Positions 1 through 46,000 of a DNA stretch of 64,000 bases are shown piece by piece. Position 1 is the first letter of the stretch. The number at the start of each line of letters is the position of its first letter. The DNA is from Octopus sinensis (Eukaryota). Position numbers: made by a program. The stretch covers positions 66,154,001 to 66,218,000 of the forward strand of contig NC_043000.1 of NCBI RefSeq assembly GCF_006345805.1, written 5' to 3'.

Positions 1-3000
1 TTTACAATCCACTCCCATGCTTGCATAAGTTAGAAAGAATTTGTTGCAGCAGATTTTCTACAACCCTTCCTGTTACCAACCTCACCACTTTCCAGATAAG
101 GTAATCTTTCCCCATAGCTAGATAAGCTTTTGACTAAAAATTGGAAACAAACAACATTGCTTGTATGATGGTAACACTCATTTGCCATCATCACATATTG
201 TCATGGCAAGGGTGCACATAAATACACTCATAAACATACATACATGCATGCATGCATGAAACCTTCTTTCAACTTCCACATACCAAATCTACTCACAAGG
301 ATTTGGTTAGCCCAAGGCTTTAACTGAAGACACTTGCCCAAGGTTCAGTGCAGTGGGACTGAATCAAAGACCACATGGTTGGGGAGCAAGCTTCTCAACT
401 ACAGAGCCACATCTGCATTTATAGATGTTACAATATTTGTTTTAATGCTTTCAGGTTTCATGTAAGCAAGATGTGAAATAGTTTACAGGCACAACAAACT
501 GTAGTTAGTTATAAAATAAAGGATAAAGACCCTTTCCAAGTCATATAAATACATAGGGCTGGTTTCCTGGTTTCTGTGGCACAAATACTCTTCCTTGGAC
601 AGGATGCTGATCTGTCACAGGATTACTCATTTTTCCCAGCTGAGAGGACTGAAGTAGCATGAAATGAAATGTTTTACTCAAGAACACAACACTTTGCCCA
701 ATTAAGAAGTTGAAGCCACAATCATATGATCATGAATCCAACACCCTAACCACTAAGTGACACACCTTCACATACAGTCTATTTACTGATACATATATAT
801 ATATTTCGTCAACATTGGAAGTTGATAAAAGGCAAATCTGATCTTGCTGAGCTGATAATTACATGACACTGAACTCAACAGCATAAAGCAGAGATGATGG
901 ACTTAATCCATCACTACCTGGACCTTGGGTGCCTATAGCAGATTCCACTATGTTGCAAACCTTCAAGTAAAACTCTGATCAAAGGATAACTTCTTTTCCT
1001 TAACTCTCACCACTTACAGAATCCCTAAAAAAGGGTCATATGTGCTAGTCTTGCTCCTCTGAATAAACCATTAAAAAAAGCAAAATAGTAGTAAAATAAA
1101 TAGATAAATAAATGAATAAATGACTTACTGTGTTTAAACCTTCTACACTATTTCTTTGATACCTAGGCATGGTAGCTTTATTATTATTATTATTGATACT
1201 AGGTGATATTGACTTTGGTTGGCTGAATACATTGGTTGATTGGCTTGATGTTAATGCACAATGATTTGCAGATACAGGACTGTGTCTAAGTTTTGAAGAA
1301 TTGGGCTGTTTGCTTCCTTCTTTGTTTTTTTGTAGATGTTGTCTAATGAGCTGAAAAAGACAAATTTTATAGAAAACATAAATTATGCAAATTATTAAAC
1401 AAAATATTTTAAAATTATAGACATTATCATCATTATTTGTAATAGCTCACAATTTTTTTTTAATTAATAAATTGTACTGAAGCTGTGAACTTTCAATGGG
1501 GAGAAGAAGCAACTCAACTGATTGTTGAGTTACACAGCCTGTTGAGTAATGTTACACCAGAGATCTTTGGAGGGTTCCCCATTTCAGGTGCTTACATTCG
1601 CAATTGTACTCTTTCAGACATTACTACAGACATGTGTTTAGAATGTTGCAGAAAAGAATTGCAAGACAGGTTCTTCAAGCCAAGTCAGATGACAGGAAAC
1701 TGTGGGGTGGGCCAAGAATGAGCTGGATGGATAATATCCATAGTCTTAGTTAGCCATACTTAGGAATCCATCTTGAAAGTCTAATGATGTTTGCTTCAGA
1801 GAAGAACCTATGGAGAAGATGCCTCTATCCATATGACCTTTCCAGGAATACTGGGCAAAGATGGATAGATAAACATTGTTATATTTGGAGATGGTCATAT
1901 TTTTGCCAATTAACCATACACACTATATACTTGGTTTTCATTTCAGATCTATTATTATTCATATTTTAAGGTCTTTTGTTTGAAATCTTTTTGTCACACA
2001 TCCTGTGACCTCTTCAGCAACTCTCCATCCCATGTGTATCCTATAACAATATCCGTTTCAACACATAATTTCATATCAAGAATCTTGCAAGACCAAAAAC
2101 ATAGACATAAGATAGATAAATAGTTATATATATCAACTGTTTATCAGAAACCATTAAAGAGATTCAATACATTTTATAATTTATTAGTACTAGCAATGAC
2201 ATCCAGTCTTGTCAGTGGTGCTAGAAGGCAGTGTGTGCATATGTGTGCATGTGAATGTATGTAACATAGGCACCAGTGAAGTAGTGAAATAATTTGCAAC
2301 ACAAAGAAAAGACCCTTAATGGAGTTGAATTATAGAAGAGAGTGCGGTAGCTTTAGGCCAGGTGTTGAGAGGCTAAAATAAGATAGAGACTCAGGTACAG
2401 GAGATACATACATATGCCTACCCCACATTATAAAAGGGTGTATGAGAGAAGATAGGAAATGATCTGAATAAAAATTCAAAATTGAAAGTTACCTCTGAGA
2501 GAAATTCTTAAGAAAAAGTGGCAATTGAAAGTAACTCTCAAAGAAAAAGGGACAAAATTTCAAGAGATTAGGAACTAATCTCTACAAAGTTAATGAGTAA
2601 AGCCCAAGTCAATGTAAATACACTATCTTTAAGATAGCATGTTAGTACAAGTATCTATTTTTTTAAAATTCTTTACTGGTTTCAAACTTTAAACTACTGC
2701 TGGGCTAAGACATCATATTTGAGGGTTTTAGTCAATTAAATCAACCTCAGCACTTTGTCTAGTAGTTATTTTAACAATCTTGTATGGCTGAGTAGCACAC
2801 CGAATCTTCATTCAACCATGCCTCACTGGTATGTGTGTGTGTGTTCTTTCTACTATAGGCACAAGGCTTGGAGTTTTGGGGGAGGGGATTGGTCAATTAC
2901 ACTGATCCCTGTGTTTTGCTGACACTTATTTTATTGACCCCCAAAAAGATAAACAGCGAAGCTGGCCTCAGCAGAATTTGAACTCAGAATGTAGAGCTGG

Positions 3001-43000: not shown

Positions 43001-46000
43001 TACAATTCACATACACAAGCCATAAAATTATACTAACACAAAAGATAAAAGTAATAGAAATAAACACACATATGTATGTATATACACAAATAGATATATT
43101 TATACACACATACTCATACAGGGATAGACAAGCCATTACGCATATATTCACAATATAAACTAATATATATCAAGACACACATAGATCAACAGATAAACAA
43201 TCATAGATAAATATACGCCCAAATAAGGACCTAAGACAATTAGTTTAAATTATGGCTTATAAGATCGAAGAGGATGTAACTCTAATTTTCTTTTTTTTAT
43301 TCACCTTTCCATTTTTTGCATTAACCTTGTTTTCTCTCATAATTTCTCATGTACCAGAGTACTGATCTTCAAATAGAACAGACTATGTGCTCAGAGCCCA
43401 AGAATTGTTTGGAGACACAAGATCATCATCACCTCATAAAATGATAGGATGAATAAAAATTTTCAATTTTTACACTTACTGGGCTTGGGTTCAAGTCCTA
43501 CTGTGTGGCATCTTGAGCAAGTGTCTTCTACTATAGCCCTACACTGATCAAAATCTTGTCATGGTTTAAACAGACAGAAACTGAAAGAAGCCCATCGTGT
43601 GTGTATGTGCGGTTTTAGACGCAGCAAATGACTTTAGATCAATAGAGGGCATAGGATTGGTTAAAGTTCGAAAAATTAAACTACGTTAAACTTACAAATT
43701 ACAATTTTCTCAAGAAAGCCAAGAGAAAAAATGTTTTATTTTGACACATTCTACCAGTATACGAAGTTTAAAAGTGTTTAGTTAACTAGAAATTGTGTTG
43801 AAAACTGCCGTTCAAAAGGAAAAGATCCTATGTGCGTCCCACCACCCTTGTTTTGACATCATGCGATATTTGTAAATAAGCACAACGTCCATACAAGCAG
43901 TGTTATTTGCTTCCAATCTTCTGTGAAAACATGTCTGACTTTGGGGAATATCACCTTGTTTGGAAACAGATGAGGGTCAGTAATAATTAGGGTACCCAGT
44001 CATAGAAAATCTGCCTCAATGAATTATGTTTGTTCTATGCAAGAATGAAAAAGTGGACGTTAAAACGATAATAATGATGATAAAAATCTGATTAACTATT
44101 CACTTTAATCCTTCATACTTGTGTATAACAAATTTATGGACAACGTTTCTCAAAACTCTCAAGCTTTTAATATATAATTTCTAAAGCCCTTATATTTTAA
44201 ATGAATTAATATATGGTGTGTGTGTGTTTATTTGGCAAGGAAAAAAAAACAGAAAGAAAAAAAAACGACCATCCCGAAATATAACAATGGCTCAACACAA
44301 TTTCACGTTAGGAATCTTGCAAAACAAATACATACATGTTTCAGAAAATAGATATTTTAAATTAAATTTTCTACAAATACCTTTCAGAGAGTATTTCAGT
44401 TTACGATTAACAAAATTGGTAGGTGTACACACACATACTGACACACATCACTTATAACGAAAAAAACTATGTGAAGCGTGTCTGTATATATGTGAGCGCG
44501 CCAACCAATTTTTTCTTCACATGAAATTCTGATATAATCGTAACGTAGGTATTCTTTCGTAACTGTCAGCAAAGAAGCCATTTGAAGCAAGTGGTATTAT
44601 TATGGTAATGTAAACTATCTGAAAGGCATTTGTAGGAAATTTCATTAAAAAATACCCTTTTTTCTGAAAGTCATGAGGAAACAAAGTCGACTCGTGCCAA
44701 TTATCCGAAACTCTTCCCGCCCTCTCCGAAAACTCTTCCACAACAAATTCCGATATAATCGGTGTCTACACGAGTATGCATTGGGTACAATTGTGTAAGT
44801 ATTGGCTATTTCGATTTATATCAGATGACTTACTTGTTTACAAACATCATGACACATGACACCGTGATTCATGAACCTTAAAGATAGATGTGTAGTAGTA
44901 AACAATAACGTAGTTAGTTACCAACCACTCACAGGTTCATTCCATTTCTGATGGCGAATGACGAAGGAAGTAACTTTTTATAAATTAAAACATACAGTCC
45001 AATTTTTCTTTTAAATTATCAATGGCAACCTCTTGCCTTATCAATAGCAAAAAAAAAAATGAGCAACAGAAATCATTCATAATTACACTGAACAAGCCGA
45101 CCTCAGCGCAGCCTAAAAAGTATCCAGCGTCCACGAAACTGATAAAGTTTGATAAAGTGAAAGCAACACGTTTAATCAGAAAGGTCGCCCAGATATCGCC
45201 ATAGTAAAATACACAAGTTCAAAGACCTGCAAAATGGGGTTGAACCCAAAACCACATAATTATTGCTAAGTGAAATTCTTATCCACAGAGCTATGCTTGC
45301 ACAAAATATCGAGAATACATTGACGTAAGAAGATAAAATTACATTCGTCATCAAAATGTTAGATATGACCTTTGCTACCAAAGTAAAACGAAACTGTTCT
45401 GGGGAAGAAGAAAAAAAGACATTTGAATATGCAATATTTTGTACACTACGACTGAGAAAAGGTGGGATGATCACAGCTCGAACGTCTTCGATGATAGATC
45501 TGCTCAGGTTATAAGTTTAAATCCCGTTTAAGTCGGTACTACTTGAGAACAGTGGTCCCGGTGCGCGCACTCGCGCTAGCTAGTCATGACTAGTCGATCC
45601 TTACTTTGTGTGTTATTTACTTTGTTTTAAAAATTATTTACTTTGTGTTTTTGTGTTTTATTTACTTTGCTAGGTAGTCGTTGTAGGATCGACTAGTCAC
45701 GATTAGCCAGCGCGGATGCGCAACAACGAGAGTGCGTGCACCGGGACCACTGTTCTCAAGTAGTCTTCAGTTGATAAAATAAAGTATCAGCTGAGATGCA
45801 TCTCAGATGTAAATTATAATAGAAGACAGACACAGTCTACTCGGACTAAAACAACAATGATGTGACGTCCTCATAAATGAATTATTTCCAGCAGATTTTG
45901 ACTATTCTTAGATTTATATTCTAGTTTCTGATATTGTCCGTATTCTTAAAAAAAAAAACGGTAAGGTATGATGGAGATTTGATTACTATTTCAAATGGGT

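What the first reader, a model, noticed from the sequence alone, without database searches (positions are those of the whole stretch)
1129..44975. UMAD1 followed by GLCCI1/FAM117 in the same order and orientation as human 7p21: candidate ancient bilaterian microsynteny
Seen: a UMAD1 homologue lies directly upstream of, and co-oriented with, a GLCCI1/FAM117 homologue, with only transposon debris between them. Established (from memory): human UMAD1 and GLCCI1 are adjacent and co-oriented at 7p21, in the block MIOS-RPA3-UMAD1-GLCCI1-ICA1. Inference: keeping this functionally unrelated pair in a mollusc, a lineage with much genome rearrangement if it is a coleoid, suggests a transcriptional or regulatory constraint. 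It would also mark GLCCI1 as the vertebrate paralogue at the ancestral locus.
Basis: partly seen in the sequence, partly recalled or inferred. Interest (0 to 1): 0.75.

Follow-up and report, generated by a model that had tools for sequence, protein, structure and literature searches.

The report
Octopus UMAD1 next to FAM117/GLCCI1
In this octopus sequence a small ESCRT-related gene (UMAD1-like) sits just upstream of the start of the FAM117/GLCCI1-family gene, as in vertebrates, but whether this neighbourhood dates back to the first bilaterians could not be tested here.

Summary
Both genes are on the minus strand of an Octopus window.

- **UMAD1-type gene:** two coding exons, 41131-40946 and 38119-37805, with the stop at 37804-37802.
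- **FAM117-family gene:** starts 20.4 kb downstream. Its exons in the window are 17358-17347, 17087-16986 and 1350-1129. It then runs off the window, which holds only 112 of 348 codons.
- **Between them:** 895 ORFs scanned against Pfam, plus Rfam and tRNA scans, showed no other gene, only transposon fragments.

On family membership, FAM117 is solid. UMAD1 is good but indirect: it rests on UMA domain motifs, the Pfam assignments of its cephalopod orthologues, and an Atlas lead.

The pair is also adjacent in Argonauta, judged from consecutive accessions on one contig. Papers place UMAD1, GLCCI1 and ICA1 together in human and chicken, and report human UMAD1-GLCCI1 read-through transcripts.

No animal genome collection was available, so no third phylum was checked. 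My simulation shows a genome-wide scan would find a few to about ten such matches by chance. "Ancient bilaterian microsynteny" therefore remains a reasonable candidate, and any constraint is unproven. The argument that GLCCI1 marks the ancestral locus is weak, because FAM117B keeps ICA1L beside it. Interest is modest.

The parts
40946..41131 (-). UMAD1-like first coding exon: ATG plus 61 codons (MFSLL...EADGFLLIGE...IYGQ). It ends in phase 0 at donor GTAAGT (40945-40940). An acceptor (tttcag) lies two bases before the ATG.
   Evidence: Sequence and translation (P0005). BLASTP to Argonauta P0007 residues 1-46: 55% identity, E 2e-14. Atlas rank 2 is a chordate 'UMA domain containing 1' cluster at 0.89 (a lead only).
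37802..38119 (-). UMAD1-like last coding exon: 105 codons (38119-37805) plus the TGA stop (37804-37802). It holds the UMA domain, with I38-P39-F40 and Y72-D-F74-S-F-E77.
   Evidence: Sequence and translation (P0004). Homologues P0007, P0008 and P0009 all carry precomputed PF28191. Pfam DUF2464/MVB12 C-terminus: 19.4 bits for the exon and 28.7 bits for P0007, against a cutoff of 22. The motif positions tested in human UMAD1 come from PMC10445733.
38120..40945 (-). UMAD1-like intron (2,826 bases).
   Evidence: Splice sites read. The two exons tile the full-length cephalopod proteins in alignment A2.
17359..37801 (.). Intergenic stretch between the UMAD1 stop and the FAM117 ATG (20,443 bases). 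It includes the unmapped FAM117 5'UTR and promoter, with CTG/CAG-type triplet runs at about 17400-17520.
   Evidence: No Pfam family above its cutoff on either strand. No Rfam family and no tRNA. 15% is repeated elsewhere in the window. There is a weak PIF1-like fragment at 31358-31510 on the + strand (E 4.6e-3).
17347..17358 (-). FAM117-family start mini-exon: ATG GAT AAT CTG (MDNL), donor GT at 17346-17345, in-frame stop upstream at 17391-17389.
   Evidence: Read. It matches residues 1-4 of P0001. Two other cephalopod transcripts start M-E-D-L and M-A-D-L (P0002, P0011).
16986..17087 (-). FAM117-family exon, 34 codons (TSEDWDV...KKSHRRSVSLGHHDQLQ), phase 0 at both ends.
   Evidence: Sequence and translation (P0006). 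tblastn with P0001 gives E 4.9e-17. It also matches 15 of the 18 other invertebrate FAM117 proteins tried, the best being Solemya at E 5.8e-7.
1129..1350 (-). FAM117-family exon, 74 codons (LIRQHLQKNKEGSKQ...RYQRNSVEGLNT), donor GTAAGT at 1128-1123. The gene continues beyond the start of the window.
   Evidence: Sequence. 100% identity to P0001 (E 2.5e-37) and 42% to Biomphalaria FAM117B. P0001 scores 139.9 bits on PF15388, E 1.7e-40.
44933..44975 (-). A donor-like CCT|GTGAGT follows it. Unverified.
   Evidence: Sequence only. An upstream exon is implied by the acceptor before the ATG. No transcript data were available.

Best explanation
The window holds two separate real genes on the minus strand.

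1. A 167-codon UMAD1-type gene with two coding exons. Its product is a small UMA-domain protein, the class that plugs into ESCRT-I as an MVB12-like subunit.
2. 20.4 kb downstream, the first 112 codons of the single cephalopod FAM117-family gene, co-orthologue of GLCCI1, FAM117A and FAM117B.

The head-to-tail pair is shared by Octopus and Argonauta and matches vertebrate UMAD1 then GLCCI1. The most likely reading is common descent from a UMAD1-FAM117(-ICA1) locus in the bilaterian ancestor, not independent assembly.

How it persisted is inferred, not shown. My preferred mechanism is that the small UMAD1 gene lies within the 5' regulatory and transcriptional territory of FAM117, so breaks between them would damage FAM117 expression. 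I put this at about one chance in three. In its favour, transcription runs from UMAD1 into GLCCI1 in human, and in octopus the UMAD1 exon-1 donor and the FAM117 exon acceptor are both phase 0.

Shown: the gene models, the adjacency in octopods, and the vertebrate linkage as reported in papers.
Inferred: the bilaterian age of the pair and any selective constraint.
For: - Gene models and identities.
- UMA signature residues: the IPF and YxFxxE motifs match the positions whose mutation was tested in human UMAD1, where V89P90F91/AAA abolished ESCRT-I binding (PMC10445733, passages).
[quoted passage not shown] Equating tcag7.903 with UMAD1 is my assumption.
- Atlas: the nearest cluster to the Argonauta orthologue is chordate 'UMAD1 protein', score 0.93, 209 of 256 features.
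- Nothing else between the genes.
- Argonauta: consecutive accessions on a contig of the same length.
- Vertebrates.
- Base rate: hundreds of metazoan microsyntenies survive in coleoids (275 in Euprymna; PMC9023564). Descent is therefore the commoner source of such matches than chance, which gives about 0.5-10.
Against: - Only two animal groups are covered (octopods and vertebrates). No non-cephalopod invertebrate was examined.
- Human order and orientation rest on papers and recall, not on coordinates I could read.
- The next human neighbours, RPA3 and MIOS, were not found upstream.
- None of the best 120 of 639 FAM117 hits carries a UMA domain, so no merged gene models betray adjacency elsewhere. 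Hits 121-639 were not shown.
- UMAD1 orthology to the vertebrate gene is indirect. phmmer over 1.84 billion representatives found only 2 proteins, both cephalopod-like. A profile of the cephalopod proteins found 0 PDB chains.
- The Argonauta adjacency is inferred from accession order. Orientation there is unknown.
- Nothing tests constraint.
Confidence: 0.6

Rival explanations
1. Ancestral adjacency kept by neutral survival. The pair is inherited from the bilaterian ancestor, but nothing selects for it. It is simply one of the minority of neighbour pairs that no rearrangement has yet separated in either lineage.
For: No evidence of constraint was obtained in any call. The two products have no known functional link: ESCRT-I subunit (PMC10445733) versus a FAM117-family protein. 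The spacing is 20 kb of ordinary repeat-bearing sequence.
Against: Coleoid genomes are heavily reorganised (PMC9023564), so neutral survival in octopods and in vertebrates together is the less likely route for any one pair. Human read-through transcripts hint at transcriptional coupling.
Confidence: 0.3
2. Coincidence. The two genes became neighbours independently in octopods and in vertebrates, or were merely on the same ancestral chromosome and were shuffled next to each other twice.
For: The simulation covers two genomes sharing 7,000-10,000 orthologues. They are expected to share about 2 adjacencies by chance if fully scrambled, about 0.5 of them with the same order and orientation. With 20 conserved linkage groups scrambled internally the figures are about 40 and about 10. 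The first-stage scan looked at many windows, so a single hit is not significant by itself.
Against: For this pre-named pair the chance is about 1 in 10^3-10^4. True retained blocks outnumber chance ones. The downstream flank is also paralleled in vertebrates (GLCCI1-ICA1 and FAM117B-ICA1L), which shows the locus is old at least in vertebrates.
Confidence: 0.15
3. One transcription unit. UMAD1 exon 1 also serves as an alternative 5' exon of FAM117, or read-through makes a chimeric protein. The 'two genes' would then be parts of one conjoined locus, which would explain why they cannot be separated.
For: The UMAD1 exon-1 donor (phase 0, at 40946) and the FAM117 exon acceptor (phase 0, at 17087) are frame-compatible. 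Human UMAD1-GLCCI1 chimeric transcripts and a bridging lncRNA are reported. Cephalopod FAM117 has lost its usual N-terminal exons.
Against: Frame compatibility has a one-in-three chance. Cephalopod transcript-derived FAM117 proteins start with their own M-[DEA]-[DN]-L mini-exon (P0001, P0002, P0011). Cephalopod UMAD1 proteins end with their own stop. None of the 120 listed FAM117 hits carries PF28191.
Confidence: 0.07

Closest known systems
Human 7p21 neighbour pair UMAD1-GLCCI1 (with ICA1, RPA3, MIOS nearby)
   Same: The same two families sit side by side. UMAD1 is upstream on the same strand, as inferred for human from read-through transcripts named UMAD1-GLCCI1 (PMC11791353) and a bridging lncRNA.
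   Different: The octopus partner is the single pre-duplication FAM117 gene, and by score it is closest to FAM117B. It is N-terminally short. RPA3 and MIOS were not detected upstream in the window. ICA1 could not be looked for, because the window ends inside FAM117.
Conserved metazoan microsyntenic pairs and blocks (Irimia et al. 2012, PMC3514665, seen as search listing and abstract start only; Schmidbaur et al. 2022, PMC9023564, passages)
   Same: Unrelated genes kept as neighbours across phyla. The usual explanations are shared regulatory landscapes or co-expression.
   Different: Those studies require presence in many species. Schmidbaur et al. require sharing with at least six distant species and blocks of three or more genes. 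Here only a two-gene pair in two animal groups is documented.
Vertebrate paralogon FAM117B-ICA1L (2q33.2) / GLCCI1-ICA1 (7p21)
   Same: A FAM117-family gene lies next to an ICA1-family gene in two human paralogous regions. This points to a single ancestral locus that included FAM117 and ICA1.
   Different: UMAD1 is reported only beside GLCCI1. The ICA1 flank is outside this window.

Membership tests
FAM117 family (GLCCI1/FAM117A/FAM117B; Pfam PF15388) | Match to PF15388 above its gathering score | tested here: met
   P0001, the Octopus protein whose residues 5-112 are encoded at 97-100% identity by the window exons, scores 139.9 bits against a cutoff of 27. The window exons alone are too short: exons 16986-17087 and 1129-1350 gave no FAM117 hit by themselves.
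FAM117 family (GLCCI1/FAM117A/FAM117B; Pfam PF15388) | Conserved core motifs shared with other phyla (H-[RK]-R-S-x-S-[LF]-G; Q-R-N-S-V-E-G-L-N-T-E-I-E) | tested here: met
   HRRSVSLG lies in exon 17087-16986 and RYQRNSVEGLNT at the end of exon 1350-1129. These are invariant columns in alignment A1 and are visible in 18 further invertebrate proteins.
FAM117 family (GLCCI1/FAM117A/FAM117B; Pfam PF15388) | N-terminal region with R-x-x-S-[LM]-[DE]...Y-L-x-G-x-W-P and D-K-S-T-Q-T motifs, present in other invertebrate members | tested here: not met
   tblastn of the first 175 residues of 18 invertebrate proteins found no such exon in the window. All 3 cephalopod proteins (348-362 aa) and the two further octopod members of P0001's cluster (348 aa each) lack it. 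P0001 covers only model positions 45-303 of 310. This marks a short cephalopod form and is not grounds to exclude it from the family.
UMAD1 (small UMA-domain ESCRT-I subunit) | UMA domain detected by a profile | tested here: met
   PF28191 (UBAP1-MVB12_assoc) is precomputed on all 3 homologues found (the family name comes). The DUF2464/MVB12 C-terminal region scores 28.7 bits against a cutoff of 22 for the Argonauta orthologue. The window exon alone scores 19.4 bits, below the cutoff. PF28191 is not in the Pfam copy I could scan.
UMAD1 (small UMA-domain ESCRT-I subunit) | Signature [VI]-P-F motif and downstream Y-x-F-x-x-E, the residues mutated in human UMAD1 | tested here: met
   P0004 has I38-P39-F40 and Y72-D-F74-S-F-E77, with a gap of 32 residues from F to Y. 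The human positions are V89 P90 F91, Y125, F127, E130, a gap of 34 (PMC10445733 passages; octopus residues).
UMAD1 (small UMA-domain ESCRT-I subunit) | Small protein with its own conserved N-terminal extension and no MABP or UBA domains | tested here: met
   62 + 105 codons, with no other Pfam domain. The N-terminal exon is conserved among cephalopods. De Souza and Aravind describe this architecture for the tcag7.903 group. Likeness of the N-terminal extension to that of vertebrate UMAD1 rests on an Atlas lead (0.89) and on my recall.
UMAD1 (small UMA-domain ESCRT-I subunit) | Reciprocal best sequence match to a named vertebrate UMAD1 | tested here: inconclusive
   Single-exon searches reached only cephalopods (3 hits; 2). 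The Atlas nearest cluster is chordate 'UMAD1 protein (Fragment)' at 0.93, which gives no alignment or E-value.
Ancient (bilaterian) conserved microsynteny | The same neighbour pair in several independent phyla on both sides of the protostome-deuterostome split | tested here: inconclusive
   Protostome side: Octopus (this window) and Argonauta, both octopods. Deuterostome side: human and chicken linkage from papers. No other phylum could be queried, because the genome collection on hand is bacterial and archaeal only.
Ancient (bilaterian) conserved microsynteny | More sharing than expected by chance | tested here: inconclusive
   For a pair named in advance the chance is small. For a genome-wide scan about 0.5 to 10 oriented coincidences are expected.
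Ancient (bilaterian) conserved microsynteny | Evidence of constraint (shared regulatory domain, co-expression, read-through) | not testable with these tools
   No octopus RNA, ATAC or Hi-C data were available. Only human read-through reports exist.

The most novel reading that the evidence does not exclude
UMAD1 then FAM117 is a conjoined, co-transcribed locus more than 550 million years old. Transcription or regulatory input starting at UMAD1 feeds the FAM117 gene. That would explain why the pair survived both coleoid genome reorganisation and vertebrate genome duplications. In cephalopods the usual FAM117 N-terminal exons were lost, which left frame-compatible splicing from UMAD1 exon 1 into FAM117 as a possible chimeric product linking ESCRT-I to FAM117 function.
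Probability: 0.1. Interest if true: 0.55.

Novelty: new member of a known kind. Interest (0 to 1): 0.3.

Why it matters
If the pair proves to be linked across many phyla, it would add one clean, two-gene, same-strand example to the catalogue of ancient microsyntenies. It would date the UMAD1-FAM117-ICA1 arrangement to before the vertebrate genome duplications. It would also give a testable case of tandem genes held together by read-through or shared regulation, rather than by the better-known bystander or bidirectional-promoter models.

It would also tie two poorly understood human genes, both common in GWAS loci, to a shared regulatory history.

As it stands the finding is a well-annotated candidate, and the gene models are the solid part. 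My searches for 'GLCCI1' with 'microsynteny' (0 papers) and with 'synteny' (1 unrelated paper) found no prior report. The supplementary lists of the large microsynteny surveys could not be read.

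Tried and rejected
1. **Whole-frame translations to Pfam.** I replaced them with ORF-by-ORF scans.
   - Stop-to-stop ORFs of at least 28-34 aa, with low-complexity ORFs dropped by an entropy filter, 895 in all.
   - Of the 121 minus-strand ORFs of at least 28 aa at 51.3-64 kb, only the 48 of at least 40 aa were scanned.
   - No ORF under 28 aa was scanned anywhere, so short exons can be missed.
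2. **RPA3 or MIOS upstream of UMAD1.** No hit.
3. **N-terminal FAM117 exons, between the genes or upstream of UMAD1 (a nested-gene idea).** None found with 18 query proteins. The nested reading is not excluded beyond the window end.
4. **Fused UMAD1-FAM117 gene models as a proxy for adjacency in other species.** None among the 120 hits listed of 639.
5. **Single-sequence search of the UMA exon over 1.84 billion representatives.** Only 2 hits, so it gave no bridge to other phyla.
6. **Profile of the cephalopod UMAD1 proteins against PDB sequences.** 0 hits at E up to 10.
8. **Joined (spliced) peptide.** Each exon was searched on its own. The database protein P0001 stood in for the FAM117 product.
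9. **Structure prediction and complex prediction.** Not used, because no claim here depends on them.
10. **Metagenome and viral contig collections.** Closed, and not relevant here.

Full report
**What the window is**

It is 64,000 bases with no N, 35% G+C, and full of microsatellites and short repeated elements. One exon is 100% identical to a 348-aa protein, P0001. That protein is identical in Octopus vulgaris (CAI9721564.1) and O. sinensis (XP_029635323.1), so the window is Octopus.

**The FAM117-family gene (minus strand)**

- tblastn of P0001 against the window places residues 5-38 at 17087-16986 and residues 39-112 at 1350-1129.
- Reading the DNA adds a four-codon start exon, ATG GAT AAT CTG, at 17358-17347. 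It has a GT donor and an in-frame stop 33 bases upstream.
- Both larger exons have good splice sites and are phase 0 at both ends.
- Residues 113-348 of P0001 are not in the window.
- P0001 scores 139.9 bits on Pfam FAM117 (PF15388, cutoff 27). The two window exons alone are too short to score.
- A profile of three mollusc proteins found 639 relatives, of which the best 120 were listed. Named hits come from gastropods, bivalves, annelids, nemerteans, a brachiopod, hemichordates, amphioxus, myriapods and chelicerates, usually one per species. They are named either 'FAM117B-like' or 'glucocorticoid-induced transcript 1-like'.
- Every jawed-vertebrate hit in that list is FAM117B. The octopus gene is therefore a pre-duplication co-orthologue of GLCCI1, FAM117A and FAM117B, and is nearest by score to FAM117B.

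**A short cephalopod form**

- Other invertebrate FAM117 proteins carry about 130-155 further N-terminal residues with conserved motifs.
- The first 175 residues of 18 such proteins found nothing in the window except the two known exons.
- All three cephalopod proteins (348-362 aa) start M-[DEA]-[DN]-L-T-[SP]-E-D-W. The two further octopod cluster members are also 348 aa.
- Either cephalopods lost those exons, or they lie beyond the high end of the window. In the second case UMAD1 would sit inside a FAM117 intron. I could not tell which.

**The UMAD1-like gene (minus strand)**

- The first coding exon runs from the ATG at 41131 to 40946 (62 codons, donor GTAAGT). It is preceded by an acceptor, which implies an upstream non-coding exon.
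- The last exon runs 38119-37805 (105 codons) and is followed by TGA.
- Searched exon by exon, the last exon found three proteins, all carrying PF28191: Argonauta hians GAB1600897.1 (157 aa, 69% identity, E 7e-31) and two unnamed cephalopod-like proteins.
- phmmer over 1.84 billion representatives found only two proteins.
- Exon 1 matches the Argonauta N-terminus at 55% identity, E 2e-14.
- Together the two exons tile the full-length proteins, so the model has 167 codons with one 2.8-kb intron.

**Is it UMAD1?**

- PF28191 is the 'UBAP1-MVB12_assoc' (UMA) family (name). It is not in the Pfam copy I could scan.
- The older MVB12 model (DUF2464) matches the same region: 28.7 bits for the Argonauta protein against a cutoff of 22, and 19.4 bits for the octopus exon alone.
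- Glover et al. 2023 (PMC10445733, passages read) show that human UMAD1 is an MVB12-like ESCRT-I subunit. Mutating its VPF motif (V89, P90, F91) abolishes ESCRT-I binding; the conserved Y125, F127 and E130 were mutated as well.
- The octopus exon has I-P-F and, 32 residues on, Y-D-F-S-F-E. This is the same pattern at nearly the same spacing.
[quoted passage not shown] That tcag7.903 is UMAD1 is my assumption.
- The protein Atlas puts the Argonauta orthologue nearest a chordate cluster named 'UMAD1 protein' (0.93, 209 of 256 features). It puts the octopus N-terminal exon second-nearest a chordate 'UMA domain containing 1' cluster (0.89). These are leads, not alignments.
- A profile of the cephalopod proteins found no PDB chain.
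- My verdict: it is a UMAD1-type gene with good but indirect support.

**What lies between and around the two genes**

- The UMAD1 stop and the FAM117 ATG are 20,443 bases apart.
- I scanned 895 stop-to-stop ORFs from both strands of the window against Pfam. The limits were: at least 28-34 aa, low-complexity ORFs dropped, and only 48 of the 121 listed minus-strand ORFs at 51.3-64 kb sent.
- Only two families passed their cutoffs, and both lie in transposon-like sequence: Pif1_2B (4489-5037, minus strand) and a PHD finger (48455-48799, plus strand).
- Weaker traces are a second PHD-like ORF (9324-9611), a PIF1-like piece (31358-31510) and a Tc3-type transposase HTH (55216-55755).
- Rfam gave nothing at gathering scores and ARAGORN found no tRNA.
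- A self-comparison shows 25% of the window, 15% of the spacer and 0% of the four main exons repeated elsewhere in the window.
- The pair is therefore directly adjacent as far as these scans can see.
- RPA3 and MIOS, the recalled human neighbours on the far side of UMAD1, were not detected in the 22.9 kb upstream. RPA3's short exons could easily escape this scan.

**The comparison with other animals**

- *Human and chicken.* See the four papers already cited: they place UMAD1, GLCCI1 and ICA1 together in human and chicken and report human UMAD1-GLCCI1 read-through. This supports linkage and, through read-through, the same-strand order. The exact order MIOS-RPA3-UMAD1-GLCCI1-ICA1 remains recalled.
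- *Argonauta.* The Argonauta hians FAM117 protein is GAB1600896.1 and its UMAD1-like protein is GAB1600897.1, both on a contig of 43,031,791 bases. Consecutive accessions in a submitted annotation normally mean neighbouring genes, so the pair is adjacent in a second octopod genus. Orientation there is unknown.
- *Other phyla.* No other phylum could be examined.

**How much does the match mean?**

- I simulated two genomes sharing 7,000-10,000 orthologues.
- If they are fully scrambled, they still share about 2 adjacencies by chance, about 0.5 with identical order and orientation.
- If 20 linkage groups are conserved and scrambled inside, the figures are about 40 and about 10.
- A hit found by scanning a genome is therefore not significant alone.
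- Against that, Schmidbaur et al. 2022 report 275 metazoan microsyntenies retained in a squid, compared with 216 in a scallop (PMC9023564, passage).
- I put descent from a bilaterian UMAD1-FAM117 locus at roughly 0.6-0.65, coincidence at about 0.15, and leave the rest open.

**Mechanism**

- Nothing here tests constraint.
- The hints are human read-through, the modest 20-kb spacing, and the fact that the UMAD1 exon-1 donor and the FAM117 exon acceptor are both phase 0. That last point has a one-in-three chance by itself.
- My preferred account is that UMAD1 lies in the 5' regulatory and transcriptional territory of FAM117. It is inference. Neutral survival is nearly as likely.

**The 'ancestral locus' argument**

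FAM117B shares the 2q33.2 locus with ICA1L (PMC8951240, passage; 28 papers co-mention the two), just as GLCCI1 lies with ICA1. Both regions are therefore copies of one ancestral locus. GLCCI1 is special only in having kept UMAD1 beside it.

**Prior reports**

Searches for 'GLCCI1' with 'microsynteny' found 0 papers and with 'synteny' found 1 unrelated mammalian paper. 'UMAD1' with 'GLCCI1' found 10 papers, of which 9 were listed; the 4 I opened are association or fusion-detection studies, and the titles of the other 5 point the same way. The pair may still sit in supplementary lists I could not open.

**Verdict**

It is of modest interest.

Noticed in passing
window 17347-17358 and 16986-17087 (minus strand); proteins P0001, P0002, P0011, P0128, P0129: Cephalopod FAM117 proteins (348-362 aa) lack the roughly 130-155 N-terminal residues and motifs conserved in other invertebrate members. 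They begin instead with a four-codon mini-exon (M-[DEA]-[DN]-L). Two gastropod entries (P0015, P0016) are also short. This suggests an old internal promoter at this exon boundary, or loss of the upstream exons in cephalopods.
   Followed up: partly
window 40946 (donor) and 17087 (acceptor), minus strand: UMAD1 exon 1 ends in phase 0 and the FAM117 exon starts in phase 0. A read-through splice would therefore stay in frame and join the UMAD1 N-terminal extension to the FAM117 core. No transcript evidence was available.
   Followed up: no
window 41000-41040 (minus strand); P0005 residues about 27-38: The N-terminal extension holds an acidic run followed by D-G-F-L-L-[IV]-G-[EQ], conserved in all four full-length or N-terminal cephalopod sequences. 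From recall it resembles short linear motifs of the acidic-plus-F-x-x-[ILV] kind. This was not tested.
   Followed up: no
window 14860-15870: About 1 kb of TA/CA-rich microsatellite inside the FAM117 intron. It produces long spurious YIYIYV-type ORFs in several frames. G+C is 0.265 over 14-16 kb.
   Followed up: no
window 17400-17520 (minus strand): Runs of CTG/GTT triplets lie immediately upstream of the FAM117 start mini-exon, in what should be its 5'UTR or promoter.
   Followed up: no
window 4489-5037 (minus strand); 31358-31510 (plus strand): Pif1-type helicase fragments of the kind carried by Helitron-like transposons. Pif1_2B scores E 2.6e-15. A weak PIF1 piece scores E 4.6e-3, and broken ORFs at 29.5-30.2 kb may belong to it.
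   Followed up: partly
window 9324-9823 and 48455-49310 (plus strand): Two similar copies of a retroelement-like 3' region. A PHD-like zinc-finger ORF (25.2 bits; 22.7 bits) is followed by a conserved '...RVKGRLYDAC...' ORF. The second copy sits in the window's G+C peak (0.458).
   Followed up: partly
window 55216-55755 (minus strand): A 180-aa ORF with a Tc3-type transposase HTH (30.9 bits against a cutoff of 31.5, E 3.2e-7). It is probably a decayed Tc1/mariner element.
   Followed up: no
window 25453-25864 and 26269-26674, and many other sites: A short interspersed element is present in up to 14-15 further copies within the window. It gives the recurrent '...IYQIHSQGFGRPEAIVEDTCPRCHAVGLNPEPCGW'-type ORFs seen on both strands.
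   Followed up: partly
result (no window coordinate): No Octopus protein containing the UMAD1 last exon appeared among proteins of 57-184 aa. Yet the Argonauta entry is named after an Octopus-style gene number (LOC115211056). The Octopus UMAD1 model may be missing, or of another length, in public annotations.
   Followed up: no
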